Positions 1,462 through 20,917 of a stretch of DNA of 64,000 nt are shown in pieces. The DNA comes from Escherichia coli (GTDB lineage: Bacteria > Pseudomonadota > Gammaproteobacteria > Enterobacterales > Enterobacteriaceae). The stretch lies in assembly GCF_030013595.1 (NCBI RefSeq), contig NZ_CP122768.1. One strand, 5' to 3'. The notes under the pieces were generated by a model. The model was not told the DNA's origin. It did no database searches and saw only the letters and a program-made list of their open reading frames with translations. Each line of letters opens with the position of its first letter. Position 1 is the first letter of the stretch. The position numbers were made by a program, and so were the translations under genes.

Positions 1462-2205
1462 ATGACACAGACAGAATCAGCGATTCTGGCGCACGCCCGG
1501 CGATGTGCGCCAGCGGAGTCGTGCGGCTTCGTGGTAAGCACGCCGGAGGGGGAAAGATATTTCCCCTGCGTGAATATCTCCGGTGAGCCGGAGGCGTATT
1601 TCCGTATGTCGCCGGAAGACTGGCTGCAGGCAGAAATGCAGGGTGAGATTGTGGCGCTGGTCCACAGCCACCCCGGTGGTCTGCCCTGGCTGAGTGAGGC
1701 CGACCGGCGGCTGCAGGTGCAGAGTGATTTGCCGTGGTGGCTGGTTTGCCGGGGGGCGATTCACAAGTTCCGCTGTGTGCCACATCTTTCCGGGCGGCGC
1801 TTTGAGCACGGGGTGACGGACTGTTACACGCTGTTCCGGGATGCTTACCATCTGGCGGGGATTGAGATGCCGGATTTTCATCGCGAGGATGACTGGTGGC
1901 GTCACGGTCAGAATCTCTATCTGGATAATCTGGAGGCCACAGGGCTGTATCAGGTGCCGTTGTCAGCGGCGCAGCCGGGCGATGTGCTGCTGTGCTGTTT
2001 TGGTTCATCGGTGCCGAATCATGCCGCCATTTACTGTGGTGACAGCGAGCTGCTGCACCATATTCCTGAACAACTGAGCAAACGAGAGAGGTACACCGAC
2101 AAATGGCAGCGACGCACACACTCCCTCTGGCGTCACCGGGCATGGCACGCATCTGCCTTTACGGGGATTTGCAACGATTTGGCCGCCGCATCGACCTTCG
2201 AGTGA
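1462..2205 (+). CDS. K: Tail tip assembly protein K (JAMM/MPN plus NlpC/P60 domains)
   Basis: Lambda K-like sequence; JAMM motif HSHPGGLPWLSEAD (HxHx7Sx2D) and NlpC/P60-type Cys (GVTDCYTLF) and His (NHAAIY) visible; 3' end overlaps I. Confidence 0.85.
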   Translation: MTQTESAILAHARRCAPAESCGFVVSTPEGERYFPCVNISGEPEAYFRMSPEDWLQAEMQGEIVALVHSHPGGLPWLSEADRRLQVQSDLPWWLVCRGAIHKFRCVPHLSGRRFEHGVTDCYTLFRDAYHLAGIEMPDFHREDDWWRHGQNLYLDNLEATGLYQVPLSAAQPGDVLLCCFGSSVPNHAAIYCGDSELLHHIPEQLSKRERYTDKWQRRTHSLWRHRAWHASAFTGICNDLAAASTFE

Positions 2206-2750
2206 AAACGGGGTCCGAAGCCATCCGGGCGCTGGCCATGCAGAACCCGGCGTTTCGTCAGAAACTGAGCGACGGCTGGTACCAGGTACGCATTGCCGGG
2301 CGTGATGCAGGTGAAACCGAATTGTCTGCCCGTCTTAATGAGCCGCTGGCAAATGGTGCCGTGATCCACATCGTGCCGCGTCTGGCGGGAGCTAAAAGTG
2401 GCGGTGTTTTTCAGGCAGTGCTGGGTGCGGCGCTGATTGCGGTGGCATGGTGGAACCCTGTGGGCTGGCTGGGTGCCGCGGCTGTATCGGGCATGTATGC
2501 GGCAGGGGCCAGTATGATCCTGGGCGGTGTTGCACAGATGCTGGCCCCTAAACCCAAAACTCCCCGCACACAGACAACGGATAACGGCAAACAGAACACC
2601 TATTTTTCTTCACTGGATAATATGGTTGCCCAGGGCAATGTTCTGCCCGTTCTGTACGGTGAAATGCGCGTGGGATCACGTGTGGTATCTCAGGAGATCA
2701 GCACAGCAGATGAAGGTGATGGTGGTCAGGTTGTGGTGATTGGTCGCTGA
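2103..2750 (+). CDS. I: Tail assembly protein I
   Basis: N-terminus MAATHTLPLASPGMARICLYGDLQRFGRRIDLRVKTG and C-terminus ...VVSQEISTADEGDGGQVVVIGR match lambda I as recalled; overlaps K 3' end. Confidence 0.85.
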   Translation: MAATHTLPLASPGMARICLYGDLQRFGRRIDLRVKTGSEAIRALAMQNPAFRQKLSDGWYQVRIAGRDAGETELSARLNEPLANGAVIHIVPRLAGAKSGGVFQAVLGAALIAVAWWNPVGWLGAAAVSGMYAAGASMILGGVAQMLAPKPKTPRTQTTDNGKQNTYFSSLDNMVAQGNVLPVLYGEMRVGSRVVSQEISTADEGDGGQVVVIGR

Positions 2751-2770
2751 TGCAAAATGTTTTATGTGAA

Positions 2771-2796
2771 ACCGCCTGCGGGCGGTTTTGTCGTTT
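2771..2796 (+). terminator. Hairpin plus T-tract (ACCGCC-TGCG-GGCGGT-TTTGTCGTTT) between I and J; terminator-like element inside the late tail operon
   Basis: Inverted repeat followed by T-rich run read directly from sequence. Confidence 0.3.
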
Positions 2797-2807
2797 CTGG
2801 AGCGTGA

Positions 2808-6209
<3,402 letters not shown>

Positions 6210-6227
6210 ATTTTATAATCCATAACG

Positions 6228-6251
6228 GGCGTCAGAAATGACGCCTTTTTT
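6228..6251 (+). terminator. Intrinsic terminator downstream of J (GGCGTCA-GAAA-TGACGCC + T6)
   Basis: Perfect 7-bp stem, 4-nt loop, followed by TTTTTT. Confidence 0.55.
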
Positions 6252-6275: not shown

Positions 6276-6875
6276 ATGCGTAAACTTTATGCCGCCATTT
6301 TGTCCGCAGCCATTTGTCTGGCCGTATCCGGTGCGCCTGCATGGGCGTCTGAGCAGCAGGCCACGCTGAGCGTGGGGTATCTTCATGCCCGGACGAACGT
6401 TCCCGGCAGTGATGATCTGAACGGGATTAACGTGAAATACCGTTATGAGTTTACGGACACACTGGGGATGGTGACGTCATTCAGCTATGCAGGAGACAAG
6501 AATCGCCAGCTGACCCATTACAGCGATACCCGCTGGCATGAAGATTCCGTTCGTAACCGCTGGTTCAGCGTAATGGCGGGGCCGTCTGTGCGCGTGAATG
6601 AATGGTTCAGCGCGTATGCGATGGCGGGTGTGGCTTACAGCCGTGTGTCGACTTTCTCCGGGGATTATCTCCGCGTAACTGACAACAAGGGGAAAACGCA
6701 CGACGTGCTGACCGGAAGTGATGACGGTCGCCACAGCAACACGTCTCTGGCGTGGGGAGCTGGCGTGCAGTTTAACCCGACCGAATCCGTGGCCATTGAT
6801 ATTGCTTATGAAGGCTCCGGCAGTGGCGACTGGCGCACTGACGGTTTCATCGTGGGTGTCGGTTATAAGTTCTGA
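6276..6875 (+). CDS. lom: Outer membrane protein Lom (Ail/Lom/PagC family beta-barrel), prophage moron
   Basis: 199 aa with signal peptide (MRKLYAAILSAAICLAVSGAPAWA) and C-terminal ...GFIVGVGYKF; matches lambda Lom as recalled; flanked by terminators. Confidence 0.85.
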   Translation: MRKLYAAILSAAICLAVSGAPAWASEQQATLSVGYLHARTNVPGSDDLNGINVKYRYEFTDTLGMVTSFSYAGDKNRQLTHYSDTRWHEDSVRNRWFSVMAGPSVRVNEWFSAYAMAGVAYSRVSTFSGDYLRVTDNKGKTHDVLTGSDDGRHSNTSLAWGAGVQFNPTESVAIDIAYEGSGSGDWRTDGFIVGVGYKF

Positions 6876-6901: not shown

Positions 6902-6929
6902 AGCCCGCCGGTTCAGGCGGGCTTTTTTG
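6902..6929 (+). terminator. Intrinsic terminator downstream of lom (AGCCCGCC-GGTTCA-GGCGGGCT + T6)
   Basis: 8-bp perfect stem followed by TTTTTTGT. Confidence 0.55.
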
Positions 6930-6939
6930 TGGGGTGAAT

Positions 6940-9900
6940 ATGGCAGTAAAGATTTCAGGTGTACTGAAAGACGGCACAGGAAAACCGGTACAGAACTGCA
7001 CAATCCAGCTGAAAGCAAAACGTAACAGCACCACGGTGGTGGTGAACACGCTGGCCTCAGAAAATCCGGATGAAGCCGGGCGTTACAGCATGGACGTTGA
7101 GTACGGTCAGTACAGCGTTATTCTGTTGGTGGAAGGATTCCCGCCGTCACATGCCGGGACCATCACCGTGTATGAAGATTCCCGACCCGGTACGCTGAAT
7201 GATTTTCTCGGTGCCATGACGGAGGATGATGCCCGTCCGGAGGCACTGCGCCGTTTTGAACTGATGGTGGAAGAGGTGGCGCGTAACGCGTCCGCGGTGG
7301 CACAGAACACGGCAGCCGCGAAGAAGTCAGCCAGCGATGCCGGCACATCAGCCCGTGAGGCGGCAACCCATGCGACTGATGCTGCAGGCTCAGCACGCGC
7401 AGCCAGCACGTCAGCCGGACAGGCCGCGTCGTCGGCTCAGTCAGCGTCTTCCAGCGCAGGAACGGCATCAACAAAGGCCACTGAAGCGGAAAAAAGTGCT
7501 GCCGCTGCAGAGTCCTCAAAAAGCGCGGCGGCCACCAGTGCCGGTGCGGCGAAAACGTCAGAAACGAATGCCGCAGCGTCACAACAATCAGCAGCCACTT
7601 CTGCATCCACCGCGACTACGAAAGCGTCAGAAGCTGCCACCTCAGCCCGGGATGCGGCGGCCTCAAAAGAGGCAGCGAAATCATCAGAAACGAACGCATC
7701 CTCGAGCGCCAGTAGCGCAGCTTCCTCGGCAACGGCGGCAGGAAATTCCGCGAAGGCGGCAAAAACGTCAGAGACGAACGCCAGGTCTTCTGAAACGGCA
7801 GCGGGACAGAGCGCCTCGGCTGCGGCAGGCTCAAAAACAGCGGCTGCATCATCTGCCAGTGCAGCGTCAACAAGTGCCGGGCAGGCCTCAGCCAGTGCCA
7901 CCGCCGCCGGAAAATCGGCAGAAAGCGCCGCATCGTCTGCTTCAACAGCCACAACGAAGGCTGGCGAAGCCACTGAACAGGCCAGCGCAGCAGCGAGGTC
8001 TGCTTCCGCAGCGAAGACATCCGAAACGAACGCGAAAGCGTCGGAAACCAGCGCAGAATCCTCAAAAACGGCAGCCGCATCGTCCGCCAGTTCGGCAGTG
8101 TCATCGGCATCATCTGCGTCTGCTTCAAAAGATGAGGCGACCAGACAGGCGTCAGCAGCGAAGGGCAGCGCCACGACGGCATCCACGAAGGCGACAGAGG
8201 CAGCTGGCAGTGCGAGGGCAGCAGCTCAGAGCAAAAGTACGGCGGAATCTGCAGCAACGCGCGCTGAGACAGCGGCAAAACGGGCAGAGGATATTGCATC
8301 CGCCGTGGCGCTTGAGGATGCGAGCACGACGAAAAAGGGGATAGTACAGCTCAGCAGTGCGACCAACAGTACGTCTGAAACGCTGGCGGCAACGCCAAAG
8401 GCAGTAAAATCAGCCTATGACAATGCAGAGAAACGTCTGCAGAAAGACCAGAACGGCGCTGATATACCCGATAAGGGACGCTTCCTGAACAACATTAACG
8501 CGGTCAGTAAAACAGACTTTGCTGATAAGCGTGGTATGCGTTATGTGCGGGTTAACGCTCCTGCAGGTGCAACATCTGGAAAATATTACCCTGTTGTTGT
8601 TATGCGTTCTGCTGGCTCAGTAAGCGAACTGGCATCAAGGGTCATTATCACCACGGCAACGCGAACCGCAGGCGATCCGATGAATAACTGCGAGTTTAAC
8701 GGGTTTGTTATGCCTGGTGGCTGGACTGACAGGGGGCGTTATGCTTATGGAATGTTCTGGCAATATCAAAACAATGAACGAGCCATCCACTCAATAATGA
8801 TGAGTAATAAGGGCGATGATTTGCGCTCTGTGTTCTATGTTGATGGTGCTGCTTTCCCTGTTTTTGCGTTTATTGAAGATGGCCTGTCAATATCCGCACC
8901 TGGTGCTGATCTCGTTGTTAATGATACGACCTATAAGTTTGGGGCAACAAATCCAGCGACGGAATGTATCGCGGCGGACGTTATCCTTGATTTTAAGAGT
9001 GGCCGTGGTTTTTATGAGTCCCATTCGTTAATCGTTAACGATAACTTGTCGTGCAAAAAACTTTTTGCCACAGACGAAATTGTAGCGCGTGGTGGTAATC
9101 AGATTCGAATGATAGGTGGGGAGTATGGTGCATTATGGCGTAATGATGGCGCTAAAACTTACCTGCTGCTTACCAATCAAGGTGATGTTTATGGTGGCTG
9201 GAATACATTAAGACCGTTTGCTATTGATAACGCAACCGGCGAACTGGTTATTGGAACCAAACTGTCCGCAAGTCTGAACGGTAATGCATTAACAGCAACA
9301 AAGCTGCAAACGCCAAGACTGGTTTCTGGGGTTGAGTTTGATGGTTCCAGAGATATTACTTTAACCGCTGCGCATGTTGCTGCTTTTGCCAGAAGAGCAA
9401 CGGATACGTATGCCGATGCGGATGGGGGCGTTCCCTGGAATGCCGAATCAGGCGCTTACAATGTCACCCGCTCTGGCAACAGCTATATTCTGGTTAACTT
9501 CTATACCGGAGTCGGAAGTTGCCGGACATTGCAGATGAAGGCGCATTACAGAAATGGAGGTCTGTTCTACCGTTCCTCAAGAGATGGCTATGGTTTTGAG
9601 GAAGACTGGGCAGAAGTTTATACCTCGAAAAATCTTCCACCAGAAAGCTACCCAGTCGGCGCACCAATCCCGTGGCCATCAGATACCGTTCCGTCTGGTT
9701 ATGCCCTGATGCAGGGGCAGACTTTTGACAAATCTGCTTACCCGAAACTTGCAGCCGCTTATCCGTCAGGCGTGATCCCTGATATGCGTGGCTGGACGAT
9801 TAAGGGCAAACCTGCCAGTGGTCGGGCCGTATTGTCTCAGGAACAGGACGGCATTAAATCGCACACCCACAGCGCCAGCGTATCCAGTACGGATTTGGGG

Positions 9901-10293
9901 ACGAAAACCACATCGTCGTTTGATTACGGCACTAAATCCACGAATAACACCGGGGCGCATACGCACAGTGTGAGCGGTACAGCCGCAAGTGCCGGAAACC
10001 ATACTCATAGTGTCACAGGCGCATCAGCAGTCAGCCAGTGGTCACAAAATGGGTCAGTACATAAGGTAGTGTCTGCGGCCAGTGTGAATACAAGTGCTGC
10101 AGGAGCACACACTCATAGTGTCAGCGGCACAGCTGCATCTGCAGGTGCTCACGCACATACTGTCGGTATTGGTGCTCATACGCACTCTGTTGCGATTGGC
10201 TCACATGGACACACTATCACCGTTAACGCTGCTGGTAACGCGGAAAACACCGTCAAAAACATCGCATTTAACTACATTGTGAGGCTTGCATAA
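6940..10293 (+). CDS. stf: Side tail fibre protein (Stf family), ~1117 aa
   Basis: N-terminus [24 protein letters not shown] and C-terminus ...[31 protein letters not shown] match lambda Stf as recalled; ATG at 6940 rather than ORF-track GTG at 6934; contains A/S/T-rich repeat block and HxH repeats. Confidence 0.85.
7261..8341 (+). repeat. Degenerate tandem coding repeat (Ala/Ser/Thr-rich, recurring AAKTSETNA / SAAxSASxATTKAxEA units) inside stf
   Basis: Motif KTSETNA or KSSETNA recurs at least four times in the translated ORF; low-complexity A/S/T composition over ~360 aa. Confidence 0.6.
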
Positions 10294-10877
10294 TGGCATT
10301 CAGAATGAGTGAACAACCACGGACCATAAAAATTTATAATCTGCTGGCCGGAACTAATGAATTTATTGGTGAAGGTGATGCATATATTCCGCCTCATACA
10401 GGTCTGCCAGCAAACAGTACCGATATTGCACCGCCAGATATTCCGGCTGACTTTGTGGCTGTTTTCAACAGTGATGAGGCATCGTGGCATCTCGTTGAAG
10501 ACCATCGGGGTAAAACAGTTTATGACGTGGCATCAGGGGACGCGTTATTTATTTCTGAACTCGGTCCGTTACCGGAAAATGTTACCTGGTTATCGCCGGA
10601 AGGGGAATATCAGAAGTGGAACGGCACAGCCTGGGTGAAAGATGCAGAAGCAGAAAAACTATTCCGGATCCGGGAAGCGGAAGAAACAAAAAACAGCTTG
10701 ATGCAGGTAGCCAGTGAGCATATAGCGCCGCTTCAGGATGCTGTAGATCTGGAGATCGCAACGGAGGAAGAAAACTCGTTGCTGGAAGCCTGGAAGAAGT
10801 ATCGGGTGTTGCTGAACCGTGTTGATACATCAACTGCACCTGATATTGAGTGGCCGGAAGAACCAGACACAATGTAA
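10293..10877 (+). CDS. tfa: Tail fibre assembly protein Tfa
   Basis: 194 aa; [44 protein letters not shown]... matches lambda Tfa as recalled; start overlaps stf stop. Confidence 0.9.
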
Positions 10878-11395: not shown

Positions 11396-11758
11396 TGGTG
11401 GAGCTGGCGGGAGTTGAACCCGCGTCCGAAATTCCTACGTCCTCGGTACTACATGCTTAGTCAGTCTTTACATTCGCTTGCCAGCTGCGGACGGACACGC
11501 CACTAACAAACTAGCCTGATTAAGTTTTAACGCTTCAACCCCAGGCAGGGCTTCCACGCGATCTCTTTTGGGTTTGACCTCTCTTGATCCCCGTCCTAAG
11601 AGCGGAGGCTAGGGAGAGAGGGCTCTAAGCAGGTTATTAAGCTGCTAAAGCGTAGTTTTCGTCGTTTGCGACTATTTTTTGCGGCTTTTTACGAGGCCAA
11701 CCGCCCCTCGGCATGCACCTTGGGTTTCGCAAATCCCGTCGAATCCAGAATCAGCCCC
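11396..11758 (-). ncRNA. ssrA: tmRNA (SsrA, transfer-messenger RNA), 363 nt
   Basis: Reverse complement reads GGGGCTGATTCTGGATTCGACGGGATTTGCGAAACCCAAGGTGCATGCC...GGTTCAACTCCCGCCAGCTCCACCA, i.e. full-length E. coli tmRNA including encoded CCA. Confidence 0.95.
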
Positions 11759-11972: not shown

Positions 11973-12455
11973 TTAACGGTGGGCGTTTTTCATGATACGC
12001 GCTTTATCCACCTGCCATTCGCGCTCTTTGATATCTGAACGTTTATCGTGCTGTTTCTTACCTTTGGCGACGCCGATTTTCACTTTGCACCAGGCATTTT
12101 TCCAGTACAGGGAGAGCGCCACTACGGTATAGCCTTCTCGATTGACGCGACCGTACAATGAGTCCAGTTCGCGCTGGTTGAGAAGTAACTTGCGGGTACG
12201 GGTAGGATCGCACACCACATGCGTGGAGGCCACAGCCATTGGCGTGATGTTAGCGCCAAACAGAAATGCCTCTCCGTCACGCAGAAGGACGTAGCTGTCG
12301 CTGATATTGGCTTTTCCTGCGCGCAGGGATTTAACCTCCCAGCCTTGCAGGGCAAGTCCCGCCTCGAACTCTTCTTCGATAAAGTATTCGTGCCGGGCGC
12401 GCTTGTTAAGCGCGATGGTCGCTGAACCAGGTTTATGTGCTTTTTTCTTCGTCAT
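11973..12455 (-). CDS. smpB: SsrA-binding protein SmpB
   Basis: 160 aa, [45 protein letters not shown]...; adjacent to and co-oriented with ssrA. Confidence 0.95.
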
Positions 12456-13894: not shown

Positions 13895-15556
13895 TTACGC
13901 CGCAAGTAGTTCTTTCGCATTCGCCAGTGTGTTACGTGTGACTTCACTGCCACCAAGCAGGCGCGCCAGCTCTTGTAACCGCGCTTTTTTATCCAGGGAT
14001 TGCATATGCGTTTCTGTCATCGCACCATCGGTTTCTTTGCTGACAAAATAGTGTTGATGACCACATCCCGCGACTTGTGGCAGGTGGGTAACACACATCA
14101 CCTGAGTTGATTCGCCAAGTTGACGCAGCAGTTTGCCGACAACTGCCGCTGTTGGACCGCTAATCCCTACATCCACTTCATCAAAAATCAGTGCCGGGGT
14201 TTCCATTTTACGCGCCGTGATGACCTGAATTGCCAATGCGATGCGGGACAATTCACCACCGGATGCAACTTTGGCAATAGGCTGCATTGGCTGACCTGGG
14301 TTGGTGGTTACCCGAAACTCAATACGATCAGCGCCGTCAGCGCCCAGGTGATGCTCGTCAAATTTAATATCGATCGTAAACTGCCCATGTGGCATAGAGA
14401 GCGCATGCATACTTTTGGTGATCAGCTGTGCCAACTCATTTGCATAATGCTGGCGTTGCAGGTGTAATGCGTGCGCGGTTTCCAGTGCCTGCTGATGATG
14501 TTTCGTTACCGCCAGCGCGAGCGTTTCTTGTGAGTCGGCCTGATCGTCCAGTTGCTGCTGTTCTTCCAGTAGCGACTGGTAATACTGTGGCAATGCCTCA
14601 GGGCTGACGTGATGTTTACGTGCCAGCGAAATCTGTTTTGAGATGCGCTGTTCAAGTTCAAACAGTCGGTTGGGATCGAGATCCAGACGATCGCAGTAGT
14701 GGCGCAGTTCATCGCTGGCTTCAGTAATCTGGATGGTAGCTTCTTCCAGCATATCAAGTACGCCGGACAGTTTGCTGTCCATGCCAATCAATTCGCTCAC
14801 CAGTTGTTTAGCCGTGTAAAGCTGACTTTGCAGGTTTGCGTCTTCACCGTCGGCCATTACTGCCAATGCATTCTGGCTGGTAGTCAGCAATTGACCGCTG
14901 TTCGCCAGACGTTTGTACTCTTCGTCGATTTGCTCAAACTCTCCGGGCTGCGGATTAAATTCGTTAAGTTCTTTTAATTGGTATTGCAGCAGTTCTGCAC
15001 GGGCGGCGCGTTCCTGACTTAACTGTTGATGATGCGCGAGGTCACGGCAGCTTTGATGCCACAACTGATAACGTGCGGTCATTTCCTGGAGTAGAGAGGT
15101 TTCATTGGCATAGCCATCAAGCAGGAATTTTTGGTGCTCGGGTTTGGTGAGTAACTGATGAGCGTGCTGACCATGGATCTGAATCAGCAACTGACCCAGT
15201 TCGCGCAGTTGTGAAAGAGGAACCGCTGTACCGTTGATAAAACCACGGGAGCGACCATCGCTGCTGATTACGCGACGAAGCAAACATTCATGCCCGTCTT
15301 CAAGCTGGTTTTCTTCCAGCCAGCGCAGGGCCGCTGGCGTATCTTTCAGAGAAAAACGGGCGCACAGGTCGGCACGAGCAGCGCCGGTACGCACCATGTC
15401 GGCTTCAGCGCGACCACCGAGACAAAGGCCGAGGGCATCTATTGCAATAGATTTACCCGCGCCGGTCTCGCCAGTTATTACGGTCATGCCGCTATGAAAA
15501 TCAATCTCAAGCTCACGAACGATAGCAAAGTTGCTGATGGTCAGTTGTGCCAACAT
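13895..15556 (-). CDS. recN: DNA repair protein RecN
   Basis: 553 aa, N-terminal Walker A (GETGAGKS), SMC-like coiled coil, matches recalled RecN. Confidence 0.95.
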
Positions 15557-18597: not shown

Positions 18598-19389
18598 TTA
18601 GCTGATTAACTGCTGGACAATTCGGCTGCCGAAGTAGGCCAGTGTCAGAATGACTGCACCCGCAACGTTAAACCAGACGACGCGGCGTCCACGCCATCCT
18701 TCATGATAATGTCCCCACAGCAGCACAATATAGACAAACCACGCCACGATAGAGAGCACGGCCTTGTCGATATTTTCCATGCTAAATAAGTTGTGCATGT
18801 AGAACAGGCCAGTGCAAAGCGTGAGCGTTAGCAGCACCACGCCAATCTGCGTGATGTGGAACATTTTACGCTCGATACTCATTAATGGCGGCATTTCCTG
18901 GTTAAACGCCAGCTTCTTGTTCTTCAGTTGGTAATCAATCCACGCCAGTTGCAGCGCGTACAGGGCGGCGATAATCAGCGTGGCATAGGAAAAGAGCGAT
19001 AAGCCAATGTGCACCAGCATCCCAGGCGTTGCTTCCAGATGAGTGATGTATTCATTGGGCATGAAGGTCGCCAGCGCCAGGTTGATAAGCGCAAAGGCAT
19101 AGACAATGGGTAGCAGCAACCAGCCACGATTGCGAGAAGCCACAATGGTCATTACCGTACAGATCATCAAACTGACCAATGAACCAACGTTCAGCAGGCT
19201 GAGGTTTTGTCCGCTATCACCGTCGGGCAGGATGCGGGCTTCCAGAGCGATTGCGTGGCAGACCAGCGCAATGACCGCAGAAATAATAGCCATGCGCCGC
19301 CAGCCGCCGTTTTTTTGCAGCAGACCGGGAACAATCAGCGCAAGACTGACGGAGTAGGCGACAAGCGCGAGCAGAGCAAAAACGGGCAT
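18598..19389 (-). CDS. ypjD: Inner membrane protein YpjD (CcmC/cytochrome c assembly-like family)
   Basis: Polytopic membrane protein divergent from ffh as in K-12; start placed at internal ATG (MPVFALLALVAY...), ORF-track start 19464 is probably an extension. Confidence 0.8.
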   Translation of the reverse strand: MPVFALLALVAYSVSLALIVPGLLQKNGGWRRMAIISAVIALVCHAIALEARILPDGDSGQNLSLLNVGSLVSLMICTVMTIVASRNRGWLLLPIVYAFALINLALATFMPNEYITHLEATPGMLVHIGLSLFSYATLIIAALYALQLAWIDYQLKNKKLAFNQEMPPLMSIERKMFHITQIGVVLLTLTLCTGLFYMHNLFSMENIDKAVLSIVAWFVYIVLLWGHYHEGWRGRRVVWFNVAGAVILTLAYFGSRIVQQLIS

Positions 19390-19555: not shown

Positions 19556-20917
19556 ATGTTTGATAATTTAACCGATCGTTTGTCGCGCACGCTGCGCAAT
19601 ATCAGTGGCCGTGGACGCCTCACTGAAGACAACGTAAAAGATACGCTGCGCGAAGTGCGCATGGCGCTGCTGGAGGCGGACGTCGCTCTGCCGGTAGTGC
19701 GTGAGTTTATCAATCGCGTAAAAGAGAAAGCGGTTGGTCATGAAGTTAATAAGAGCCTGACGCCGGGGCAGGAGTTCGTCAAAATCGTCCGTAACGAACT
19801 GGTTGCGGCGATGGGCGAACAGAACCAGACCCTGAACCTGGCTGCGCAACCGCCAGCGGTCGTGCTGATGGCGGGCCTGCAAGGTGCCGGTAAAACAACC
19901 AGCGTTGGTAAACTCGGTAAGTTCCTGCGCGAGAAGCACAAGAAGAAAGTGCTGGTGGTTTCCGCCGACGTTTATCGCCCGGCGGCAATCAAACAGCTTG
20001 AGACGCTGGCAGAGCAGGTGGGCGTTGATTTCTTCCCTTCTGATGTTGGTCAGAAGCCGGTAGATATCGTTAACGCGGCGCTGAAAGAAGCCAAACTGAA
20101 ATTCTACGACGTGCTGCTGGTGGATACCGCTGGTCGTCTGCACGTTGACGAAGCGATGATGGATGAGATCAAACAAGTCCATGCGTCGATTAATCCGGTT
20201 GAAACCCTGTTTGTGGTTGACGCCATGACCGGTCAGGATGCGGCCAATACGGCAAAAGCATTTAATGAAGCGTTACCGCTTACCGGCGTAGTGTTGACCA
20301 AAGTGGACGGCGATGCCCGCGGCGGTGCGGCACTCTCTATTCGTCACATCACTGGCAAACCGATCAAGTTCCTCGGTGTTGGCGAGAAAACTGAGGCGCT
20401 GGAGCCGTTCCATCCGGACCGCATCGCGTCGCGTATTCTCGGCATGGGCGACGTACTGTCACTGATCGAAGATATCGAAAGCAAAGTTGACCGCGCGCAG
20501 GCAGAGAAATTAGCCAGCAAGCTGAAAAAAGGCGACGGCTTCGATCTCAACGACTTTCTTGAGCAGCTGCGCCAGATGAAAAATATGGGCGGCATGGCTA
20601 GCCTGATGGGCAAGCTGCCGGGCATGGGGCAGATCCCGGATAACGTCAAGTCGCAGATGGACGATAAAGTGCTGGTGCGTATGGAAGCCATCATCAACTC
20701 GATGACGATGAAAGAGCGCGCTAAGCCAGAAATCATCAAAGGTTCGCGTAAGCGTCGTATCGCCGCCGGTTGCGGGATGCAGGTACAGGACGTTAACCGC
20801 CTTCTGAAGCAGTTCGACGACATGCAGCGCATGATGAAGAAAATGAAGAAGGGCGGAATGGCGAAGATGATGAGAAGCATGAAGGGTATGATGCCGCCGG
20901 GATTTCCTGGTCGCTAA
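19556..20917 (+). CDS. ffh: Signal recognition particle protein Ffh
   Basis: 453 aa, SRP54-type GTPase (GLQGAGKTT, DTAGR, TKVDGDARGG) and Met-rich M domain. Confidence 0.95.
   Translation: MFDNLTDRLSRTLRNISGRGRLTEDNVKDTLREVRMALLEADVALPVVREFINRVKEKAVGHEVNKSLTPGQEFVKIVRNELVAAMGEQNQTLNLAAQPPAVVLMAGLQGAGKTTSVGKLGKFLREKHKKKVLVVSADVYRPAAIKQLETLAEQVGVDFFPSDVGQKPVDIVNAALKEAKLKFYDVLLVDTAGRLHVDEAMMDEIKQVHASINPVETLFVVDAMTGQDAANTAKAFNEALPLTGVVLTKVDGDARGGAALSIRHITGKPIKFLGVGEKTEALEPFHPDRIASRILGMGDVLSLIEDIESKVDRAQAEKLASKLKKGDGFDLNDFLEQLRQMKNMGGMASLMGKLPGMGQIPDNVKSQMDDKVLVRMEAIINSMTMKERAKPEIIKGSRKRRIAAGCGMQVQDVNRLLKQFDDMQRMMKKMKKGGMAKMMRSMKGMMPPGFPGR

What the first reader, a model, noticed from the sequence alone, without database searches (positions are those of the whole stretch)
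2760..2800. Terminator-like hairpin inside the late tail operon between I and J
ACCGCC-TGCG-GGCGGT followed by TTTGTCGTTT sits in the 60-bp I-J gap. In a Q-antiterminated late transcript it would be read through, but it could modulate J dosage or act as an RNA processing or stability element.
Basis: seen in the sequence. Interest (0 to 1): 0.15.

Follow-up and report, generated by a model that had tools for sequence, protein, structure and literature searches.

The report
Conserved terminator hairpin before tail gene J
The 60-base spacer between tail genes I and J of this lambda-like prophage holds a real hairpin of the transcription-terminator type that evolution has kept; it is the same element as in phage lambda, so it is genuine but ordinary, and its function has not been tested.

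Summary
ACCGCC-TGCG-GGCGGT (2771-2786; full stem 2768-2789) followed by a U-rich stretch lies in the 60-nt gap between gene I (stop 2748-2750) and gene J (ATG 2811). A hairpin plus T-tail this good is expected about 0.0005-0.002 times per 60 nt by chance.

The stem and spacing are identical in phage lambda (15462-15483). GenBank records of phage 434 and Ayreon already annotate the element as a predicted terminator.

Among 67 distinct lambda-type sequences the stem is as invariant as second codon positions (pi 0.002), while neighbouring third codon positions reach 0.12-0.22. The loop and flanks vary.

Hairpins with different sequences but the same layout sit just upstream of J in Stx-type (72/77), HK97/HK022-type (76/79) and T1-like (26/27) phages. 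Lineages without an I-J gap have none. Accessory DNA inserts between gene I and the hairpin in the three insert types read in detail.

My best reading is a sense-strand intrinsic terminator. It would stop unmodified RNA polymerase and be bypassed by Q-modified polymerase. The folded hairpin may also protect upstream mRNA. This function is inferred, not shown.

The U tract is interrupted, and the session's terminator scan missed it. I rate the element already known and of low interest.

The parts
2103..2750 (+). Tail assembly gene I (upstream gene; stop TGA 2748-2750)
   Evidence: ORF; Pfam Lambda_tail_I E=3.7e-23; PHROG tail assembly protein
2751..2767 (+). 17-nt spacer between the I stop codon and the stem. 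Its sequence varies among relatives. The equivalent spacer is about 17-19 nt in lambda-type, HK97-type, Bonzee and BR178a gaps.
   Evidence: pi 0.092; 10 of 17 columns variable. Li et al. PMC4824070: terminators closer than about 27-30 nt to a stop codon are partly repressed by the terminating ribosome.
2768..2776 (+). 5' arm of the hairpin, GAAACCGCC
   Evidence: Invariant among relatives except one A->G change that gives G.U.
2777..2780 (+). Tetraloop TGCG (UNCG type). Relatives carry TCCG or TCAG.
   Evidence: the two middle loop positions vary
2781..2789 (+). 3' arm GGCGGTTTT. Its last four Ts are also the proximal part of the U tract.
2786..2798 (+). U-rich tract TTTTGTCGTTTCT, interrupted. 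The proximal TTTT is invariant and the distal part varies.
   Evidence: distal tail pi 0.075; not accepted by the tool scan
2799..2802 (+). GGAG, probable Shine-Dalgarno sequence of J, 8 nt before the ATG. A second GAGG at 2806-2809 is too close to the ATG and is GACG in many relatives.
   Evidence: the phage 434 record annotates the RBS at the equivalent GGAG
2811..6209 (+). Tip attachment / host specificity gene J (downstream gene)
   Evidence: ORF; six GpJ-specific Pfam domains

Best explanation
The element is a factor-independent (intrinsic) transcription terminator on the sense strand of the late tail operon, packed into the I-J spacer. The spacer reads: about 17 nt to clear the ribosome stopping at the I stop codon, a 9-bp GC-rich hairpin with a fast-folding UNCG tetraloop, a U tract, and then the J ribosome-binding site.

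Inferred mechanism. Ordinary, unmodified RNA polymerase entering from upstream pauses on the U tract, the hairpin forms in the exit channel, and part of the transcripts are released before J. Such polymerase could come from stray promoters or from promoter-bearing accessory genes that insert into this slot. Polymerase modified by the late antiterminator Q cannot form the hairpin in its channel and reads through, so J is made in lytic growth.

The element therefore acts as an insulator that makes transcription of J and the distal genes depend on antitermination. Once the read-through RNA has left the polymerase, the same hairpin can still fold.

Shown: the anatomy, the orientation, purifying selection on the stem, and recurrence at this position across lineages. 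Inferred: actual termination, Q bypass, and the biological role.
For: 1. Anatomy. The hairpin folds at -15.2 kcal/mol (z = -4.5), similar to lambda tR2, and forms in the nascent-RNA context. UUUU follows the GC core directly, and a GAAA tract lies upstream.

2. Chance. About 0.0005-0.002 such sites are expected per 60 nt. The only three such sites on the + strand of the phage part are all intergenic.

3. Purifying selection. Stem pi is 0.002, with 1 of 18 columns variable. Third codon positions of I and J have pi 0.22 and 0.12, with 77% and 68% of columns variable (Fisher p = 3e-8). Loop, 5' spacer, distal tail and SD region have pi 0.075-0.155.

4. Recurrence with different sequences. A hairpin plus T run lies just upstream of J in 79/80 lambda-type, 72/77 Stx-type and 76/79 HK97/HK022-type loci, a 38-75x enrichment over the rest of the same strand. 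It is also present in 26/27 T1-like phages, in Serratia phage Bonzee and in Pseudomonas phage BR178a. In a 16-lineage sample all 6 lineages with an I-J gap of at least 50 nt have it, and 9 lineages with a gap under 20 nt have none (Ralstonia YO005_1 also has no site, but its gap was not determined).

5. Sense-strand RNA signature. Among stem variants, 11 give G.U on the sense strand against 2 that give A.C, and one C-G/U.G/U-A series occurs in Stx-type phages. The T run is always on the sense side.

6. Loops are mostly UNCG tetraloops (UGCG, UCCG, UUCG).

7. In the insert types read in detail (a + strand lipoprotein ORF, about 180 nt of non-coding DNA, and minus-strand ORFs) the insert lies between the I stop and the hairpin.

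8. Independent annotators called the same hairpin a terminator in phage 434 and Ayreon.

9. Q-lambda blocks terminator hairpin formation by extending the RNA exit channel (PMC9388147, abstract seen). A comparable ssrA prophage carries a Q-family gene upstream of the same operon.
Against: The U tract is interrupted after four Us (UUUUGUCG), the distal part is not conserved, and the session's consensus scan rejects the site. Termination may therefore be weak.

No promoter-like site was found upstream in the window that would supply unmodified polymerase.

The stop-to-stem spacing of 17-18 nt lies in the range where a terminating ribosome can suppress termination; efficiency was 0.12-0.8 at 17-18 nt in the tR2 system (PMC4824070).

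Strong conservation in phages without any insert is not obviously explained by insulation alone.

Many J-bearing lineages manage without the element.

No experimental 3' end or termination measurement was found in the searchable literature.

Q is not in the window.
Confidence: 0.55

Rival explanations
1. The selected function is an mRNA 3'-end barrier. Q-modified polymerase reads through, the hairpin folds afterwards, and when the long, weakly translated J segment is cut, 3'-to-5' exonucleases stop at the hairpin. This would protect the upstream tail-gene message; termination itself would be incidental.
For: The stem is strongly conserved while the distal U tract is not. In lambda the other larger gaps of the late operon (D-E, E-FI) also hold such hairpins, after the two most abundant head proteins. 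Terminator hairpins are known to define mature 3' ends by exonucleolytic trimming, for example in the gal operon (abstract of 10.1101/2024.10.01.616006). The hairpin is as stable as tR2.
Against: A pure stability hairpin needs no U run, yet every lineage has one on the sense side, up to T8 in HK97-type, Bonzee and T1-like phages. No decay or 3'-end data are available.
Confidence: 0.25
2. It is a partial attenuator in lytic growth. A fraction of late transcripts end before J, which lowers J relative to the upstream tail genes. J nucleates tail assembly and is needed in only a few copies.
For: The position is immediately upstream of J in many lineages. In T1-like virulent phages the terminator is followed by a conserved TGTATAAT or TGTACAAT motif, so J looks like a separate transcription unit there.
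Against: Q-modified polymerase is built to ignore such hairpins (PMC9388147). From memory and not checked here, Sampson et al. 1988 (PNAS 85:5439) reported roughly even mRNA levels along the lambda late operon, with translation setting protein ratios. The genes just upstream (M, L, K, I) are also low-copy, so no step down is needed at this point.
Confidence: 0.12
3. It is a translational element for J. Either a longer helix pairs the upstream AUGUUUUAUGUG with the downstream region including the GGAG ribosome-binding site, or the hairpin isolates the J start region from upstream structure.
For: The minimum-energy fold of the 60-nt gap is a 20-pair helix that includes GGAG (-19.8 kcal/mol, z = -2.5). 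96.7% of cells stay paired across 36 distinct relatives, with a U-A/U.G/C-G series at one pair. The hairpin always stays attached to the J side of inserts.
Against: The outer helix does not exceed column-composition shuffles (40/500 for percentage paired, 77/500 for pairs changed on both sides). It is rich in G.U pairs and adds only about 5 kcal/mol. It has no counterpart in the HK97-type or T1-like gaps. The variable loop argues against a sequence-specific protein operator.
Confidence: 0.06
4. It has no present function: a chance palindrome or the leftover terminator of a lost accessory gene.
For: The I-J slot does hold accessory inserts in relatives, with a hairpin at their downstream end. 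Morons carry their own terminators (PMC3594210).
Against: Stem diversity equals that of second codon positions while the surrounding spacer varies freely. The chance expectation is about 0.001. The element recurs in four lineages with different stems. It is retained next to minus-strand inserts, which it cannot terminate.
Confidence: 0.03
5. It is a DNA-level or antisense-strand element, such as a protein-binding palindrome, a recombination site or a terminator for leftward transcription.
For: The core is a perfect palindrome, so it also folds on the minus strand (-12 kcal/mol).
Against: On the minus strand the hairpin is followed by UUUCACAUAAAAC, not a U run. Tolerated stem changes are sense-strand wobbles, 11 against 2. 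The stems differ in sequence between lineages. The element is single-copy in the window.
Confidence: 0.02

Closest known systems
The I-J intergenic hairpin of phage lambda itself (NC_001416 15462-15483), annotated as a predicted 'terminator' in phage 434 (OL657226 15466-15485) and phage Ayreon (MF807953 14895-14934)
   Same: Same genes on both sides, same 60-nt gap, identical stem and spacing. The window differs from lambda at 2 of the 60 gap positions, both in the distal tail.
   Different: Nothing of substance. The lambda reference record does not annotate it. The 434 and Ayreon annotations carry no supporting note and I take them to be software predictions, not experiments.
Intrinsic terminators read through by Q-modified polymerase in lambdoid late operons (tR' and downstream sites)
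   Same: A GC-rich hairpin plus U tract on the late-operon sense strand. It is expected to be bypassed because Q extends the RNA exit channel (PMC9388147).
   Different: It lies about 15 kb inside the operon, between two essential tail genes. Termination and bypass have not been measured for this site. Q is off-window.
Moron-flanking terminators (lom in this window; HK97/HK022 morons; Juhala et al. 2000 as summarised in PMC3594210)
   Same: Same hairpin style as the two hairpins that bracket lom at 6227-6246 and 6902-6923. In some relatives an accessory gene sits directly upstream of the I-J hairpin.
   Different: In the window and in lambda the gap holds no accessory gene and no promoter. The hairpin is also kept next to minus-strand inserts.
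Lambda tR2 (NC_001416 40596-40619)
   Same: Similar hairpin stability, -15.7 against -15.2 kcal/mol.
   Different: tR2 has an uninterrupted U5 run and an 8-nt loop. The I-J site has UUUU followed by GUCG and a tetraloop, so it is probably weaker.
Intercistronic stabiliser hairpins such as REP sequences in malE-malF (recalled from memory, Newbury et al. 1987)
   Same: A stable hairpin between cistrons of a long operon could block 3' exonucleases.
   Different: REP elements are multi-copy with a consensus and lack U tracts. This element is single-copy, has a U tract and matches no Rfam family.

Membership tests
Intrinsic (Rho-independent) terminator | Stable GC-rich stem with a short loop | tested here: met
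   9-bp stem with 5 G-C pairs and a tetraloop; -15.2 kcal/mol, z = -4.5, 0/200 shuffles fold as well
Intrinsic (Rho-independent) terminator | U-rich tract immediately 3' of the stem | tested here: inconclusive
   UUUUGUCGUUUCU: 5 U in 8 after the GC core, but interrupted. The tool scan with maximal stem extension rejects it. Orthologous positions in HK97-type, Bonzee and T1-like phages have T5-T8.
Intrinsic (Rho-independent) terminator | Sense orientation, downstream of a stop codon and outside the ribosome footprint | tested here: met
   The stem starts 17-18 nt after the TGA of I, on the coding strand. This spacing lies in the partly ribosome-sensitive range (PMC4824070).
Intrinsic (Rho-independent) terminator | Structure maintained by selection (stem conserved or compensated; loop free) | tested here: met
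   Stem pi 0.002 against 0.12-0.22 at third codon positions, p = 3e-8. No within-lineage double changes in lambda-type or HK-type alignments. One compensated pair in Stx-type and one in the insert-bearing variant.
Intrinsic (Rho-independent) terminator | Releases RNA polymerase in vitro or in vivo | not testable with these tools
   No experimental data found
Q-antiterminated lambdoid late operon | Operon transcribed from pR' under a Q-family antiterminator | not testable with these tools
   The window starts inside the tail genes, so Q/pR' are off-window. A comparable ssrA prophage in E. coli ETEC4085 has a Q-family gene and the same hairpin.
Moron (accessory gene with its own promoter and terminator) | An extra gene with its own promoter directly upstream of the terminator | tested here: not met
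   The gap is 60 nt with no ORF and no promoter-like site. The feature is met only in related loci such as L008 (477-nt insert, phrog_914 lipoprotein-like ORF).
RNase III processing site | About 20 bp or more of double-stranded RNA | tested here: not met
   The conserved stem is 9-10 bp. The 20-pair predicted helix is not supported beyond composition (40/500 shuffles).
Repeated extragenic palindromes / curated RNA families | Multiple copies with a consensus, or a match to an Rfam model | tested here: not met
   One copy in the window at up to 2 mismatches, plus one unrelated 2-mismatch hit. No Rfam match at E <= 1.

The most novel reading that the evidence does not exclude
The terminator just upstream of J is not a lambda detail but an architectural feature found in several siphophage lineages with lambda-type tail tips. 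It would mark a boundary of the transcription unit in front of the tail-tip / host-range gene. Virulent T1-like phages pair it with a dedicated promoter. Temperate lambdoids keep it as an antitermination-gated lock, and that lock also makes the I-J junction a safe docking slot for promoter-bearing accessory genes and small non-coding inserts.
Probability: 0.25. Interest if true: 0.35.

Novelty: already known. Interest (0 to 1): 0.15.

Why it matters
For this window it matters little. The element is the lambda I-J hairpin, already annotated by software in sister phages, and terminators inside Q-antiterminated late operons are expected.

Two modest points of wider value came out of the check. 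First, the stem is under selection as strong as protein-coding constraint, so it does something, yet I found no experiment on it. Second, a terminator occupies this junction in several otherwise diverged tail modules, and accessory DNA repeatedly lands just upstream of it. That is useful for annotating prophage accessory genes and for engineering J (host-range) swaps without disturbing expression.

Tried and rejected
1. The session's promoter/terminator scan does not report the hairpin. I traced this to maximal G.T stem extension swallowing the U tract. I replaced it with a script that scores all stem truncations and validated that script on lambda tR2, t-oop and the lom terminators.

2. Rfam at E <= 1, on the window's first 13 kb and on six related loci, gave no family for the hairpin or for the Stx-type insert.

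3. The extended 20-pair helix that would sequester the J ribosome-binding site looked well kept (96.7% paired) but does not beat composition-preserving shuffles. I demoted it to a minor rival.

4. Within-lineage covariation tests on lambda-type and HK-type alignments found no double changes, because there is too little variation. The case rests instead on a diversity contrast and on recurrence across lineages.

5. I asked whether the Stx-type I-J insert is one of the known EHEC prophage anti-sRNAs (AgvB/AsxR). Those map to the pR' moron site, not here.

6. Literature searches for an experimental description of an I-J terminator, for lambda late-transcript 3' ends, or for the exact sequence found nothing.

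7. Repeat-family (REP-like) status was rejected because the element is single-copy.

8. An antisense or DNA-level role was rejected on tail orientation and wobble asymmetry.

9. One fold (L087:836-858) used wrong coordinates and is ignored.

Full report
**What is in the sequence**

The window's first ~11 kb is the right end of a lambda-like prophage tail operon on the + strand. Its genes are L (758-1456), K (1462-2205), I (2103-2750), J (2811-6209), a Lom-family gene (6276-6875), stf (6934-10293) and tfa (10293-10877). Pfam confirms I, J, K and Lom.

The prophage ends next to the tmRNA gene ssrA (11396-11758, minus strand). The flanking chromosome is about 98% identical to E. coli.

The I-J gap is 2751-2810, 60 nt. 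It reads UGCAAAAUGUUUUAUGU-GAAACCGCC-UGCG-GGCGGUUUU-GUCGUUUCU-GGAG-CGUGAGGA, followed by the J AUG.

**More than chance**

- The isolated hairpin folds at -15.2 kcal/mol (z = -4.5; 0 of 200 shuffles fold as well). This is about as stable as the lambda tR2 hairpin at -15.7.
- It forms without competition in the nascent-RNA context.
- With a script that scores every stem truncation, the + strand of the phage part has exactly three hairpin-plus-T-tail sites. All three are intergenic: I-J, J-lom and lom-stf.
- Dinucleotide shuffles of that 11 kb give 0.09-0.35 sites, about 0.0005-0.002 per 60 nt.
- The session's own scan misses the site. Its maximal G.T-extended stem (to 2766/2791) leaves only 4 T in the next 8 bases.
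- This is a fair warning that the U tract (UUUUGUCGUUUCU) is interrupted and the site is borderline by strict rules.

**It is the lambda element**

Lambda has the same 60-nt gap and an identical stem at 15462-15483. The lambda reference record does not annotate it. The GenBank records of phage 434 (15466-15485) and Ayreon (14895-14934) annotate it as a regulatory 'terminator'.

A comparable ssrA-integrated prophage in E. coli ETEC4085 has the same hairpin with a UCCG loop. It also has a Q-family antiterminator upstream of the late genes. The window itself does not reach Q.

**Selection on the stem**

I compared 80 lambda-type loci from IMG/VR, which gave 67 distinct 540-nt regions.

| Region | Nucleotide diversity (pi) | Variable columns |
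|---|---|---|
| Stem | 0.002 | 1 of 18 |
| J second codon positions | 0.003 | 4% |
| I third codon positions | 0.22 | 77% |
| J third codon positions | 0.12 | 68% |
| Loop | 0.155 | 2 of 4 |
| 5' spacer | 0.092 | 10 of 17 |
| Distal tail | 0.075 | 6 of 9 |
| Ribosome-binding region | 0.104 | 7 of 12 |

The stem differs from third codon positions at Fisher p = 3e-8 and from the rest of the gap at p = 1.2e-4.

The loop alternates between UGCG, UCCG and UCAG. The one stem change seen is A-U to G.U.

Formal covariation tests within the lambda-type and HK-type sets find no double changes, because the stems hardly vary.

**Recurrence at the same position**

Hairpins with different sequences but the same layout sit just upstream of J in several lineages. 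The criteria were a stem of at least 5 pairs, dG of -7 or better, and at least 5 T in 8.

| Lineage | J identity to the window (first 300 aa) | Hairpin | Loci with a site |
|---|---|---|---|
| Lambda-type | 97-99% | GAAACCGCC-UNCG-GGCGGUUUU | 79/80 |
| Stx-type | about 78% | ACAGGCA(C/U)CC-UCCG-GG(G/A)UGCCUGU + UGUUUUU | 72/77 |
| HK97/HK022-type | about 37% | GGCCACC-UUCG-GGUGGCU + U5-U7 | 76/79 |
| T1-like virulent | about 38% | AACCCGC-CUUGC-GCGGGUU + U6-U8 | 26/27 |

- The density of such sites in the gap is 38-75 times that on the rest of the same strand in the same loci.
- In T1-like phages the hairpin is followed by a conserved TGTATAAT or TGTACAAT motif.
- Serratia phage Bonzee and Pseudomonas phage BR178a also have the element. 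BR178a reads AACCGCC-AAGA-GGCGGUU + U5.
- In a sample of 16 lineages, all 6 with a gap of at least 50 nt have the element.
- Nine lineages whose I and J genes abut or overlap have none: ES18, SSU5, eiAU, SO-1, Torfinnsbu, phiBtTUL1a, Vibrio p41, Mcat27 and K34PH164. Ralstonia YO005_1 also shows no site, but it is unannotated and its gap was not determined.
- The element is therefore recurrent, not universal.
- Across lineages, tolerated stem variants are mostly sense-strand wobbles: 11 G.U against 2 A.C. There is one C-G/U.G/U-A series.
- The T run is always on the sense side. This points to the sense transcript as the functional form.

**The I-J junction as an insertion slot**

- Three lambda-type loci carry a 477-nt AT-rich insert with a lipoprotein-like ORF (phrog_914, no Pfam family). 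It lies right after the I stop and is followed by a variant hairpin, GAGCCGCC-UUUUG-GGCGGCUU. That variant differs by an A-U to G-C compensated pair.
- Stx-type gaps of 240-343 nt contain about 140-180 nt of non-coding DNA. This is bounded by a minus-strand terminator next to I and a + strand hairpin upstream of J (41-65 nt before the ATG in most variants, 104 nt in the 343-nt variant).
- Some HK-type loci hold minus-strand ORFs in the gap, the HK022 gp22/23 position.
- In these three insert types the insert lies between I and the hairpin. The exception is five Stx-type loci with a 178-nt gap carrying a minus-strand ORF, which show no + strand hairpin upstream of J.
- Morons are defined as carrying their own promoter and terminator (PMC3594210). 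Here the hairpin is present without any insert and next to inserts it cannot terminate, so it is not simply a moron part.

**Context in lambda**

On the lambda late-operon sense strand, terminator-like hairpins in intergenic gaps lie in the few larger gaps: D-E (6099-6116), E-FI (7163-7180), I-J (the most stable), J-lom and lom-stf; a few weaker hits fall inside coding sequence.

**Mechanism**

I commit to an intrinsic terminator that acts on unmodified polymerase and is bypassed by Q-modified polymerase. [quoted passage not shown]

The compact layout fits this reading: about 17-19 nt after the stop codon, then the hairpin, then the U tract running into the ribosome-binding site. The spacing is near the minimum at which a terminating ribosome no longer blocks the hairpin. 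Li et al. found termination efficiency of 0.12-0.8 at 17-18 nt and the maximum beyond about 27-30 nt (PMC4824070).

- **Shown:** structure, orientation, selection and recurrence.
- **Inferred:** termination, Q bypass and the biological role as an insulator.
- **Main rival:** the folded hairpin in read-through RNA protects upstream message from 3' exonucleases.
- **Other rivals:** a lytic-phase attenuator of J dosage, and a translational role through a longer helix. The longer helix is not supported beyond composition.
- **Disfavoured:** relic or chance, and DNA-level readings.

**Verdict**

The feature is real, conserved and correctly described, but it is the known lambda I-J hairpin and belongs to an expected class. 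No experimental characterisation was found in the searchable literature. Interest is low.

Noticed in passing
window 11396-11758 (-), with 11973-12455 (-): A tmRNA gene ssrA (Rfam 292.8 bits) and an smpB-sized ORF lie directly beyond tfa, so the lambdoid prophage is integrated at the ssrA site. The flanking chromosome is about 98% identical to E. coli.
   Followed up: partly
window 10636-10834 (+): A strong Rfam hit to IS009 (213.9 bits against a gathering score of 117) lies inside the tail fibre assembly ORF 10293-10877.
   Followed up: no
window 6227-6246 and 6902-6923 (+): Two clean terminator hairpins with T5 runs bracket the Ail/Lom-family gene 6276-6875, the classic moron layout. The same pair exists in lambda at 18920-18935 and 19612-19633.
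   Followed up: partly
L008:1024-1500 (and two sister loci): A 477-nt AT-rich insert lies between I and J. It carries a 112-aa lipoprotein-like ORF (MNKTILFCTIIALTGC...; phrog_914, unknown function, no Pfam) followed by a compensated variant of the hairpin.
   Followed up: partly
L090:1261-1500; L085:662-900 (JLK-2012); other Stx-type loci: The I-J gap is 240-343 nt, with a minus-strand terminator right after I (L090 1289-1273) and a plus-strand terminator before J (1427-1450). About 140 nt is bounded by these convergent terminators, with no conserved ORF and no Rfam match. It could be a small RNA or a decayed moron.
   Followed up: partly
L261-L287 (T1-like phages), about 55 to 20 nt upstream of the J-like ATG at 1501: The I-J terminator is followed by a conserved TGTATAAT/TGTACAAT motif resembling an extended -10 element. 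This suggests that J starts its own transcription unit in these virulent phages.
   Followed up: no
L250 (lambda) 6099-6116 and 7163-7180 (+): The D-E and E-FI gaps of lambda also hold terminator-like hairpins. Together with I-J, every larger gap of the essential late operon therefore carries one.
   Followed up: no
window 2650-2900: The session's terminator scan misses this hairpin. G.T-extended maximal stems absorb the U tract, so borderline terminators with A/U-tract pairing can be under-called by that tool.
   Followed up: yes
L259 (Pseudomonas phage BR178a) 803-858: The I-J gap of a Pseudomonas phage (J about 36% identical) has nearly the same stem as lambda (AACCGCC/GGCGGTT) and the same 'TTTATG...GGAG' continuation. 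I did not resolve whether this is deep conservation or convergence.
   Followed up: no
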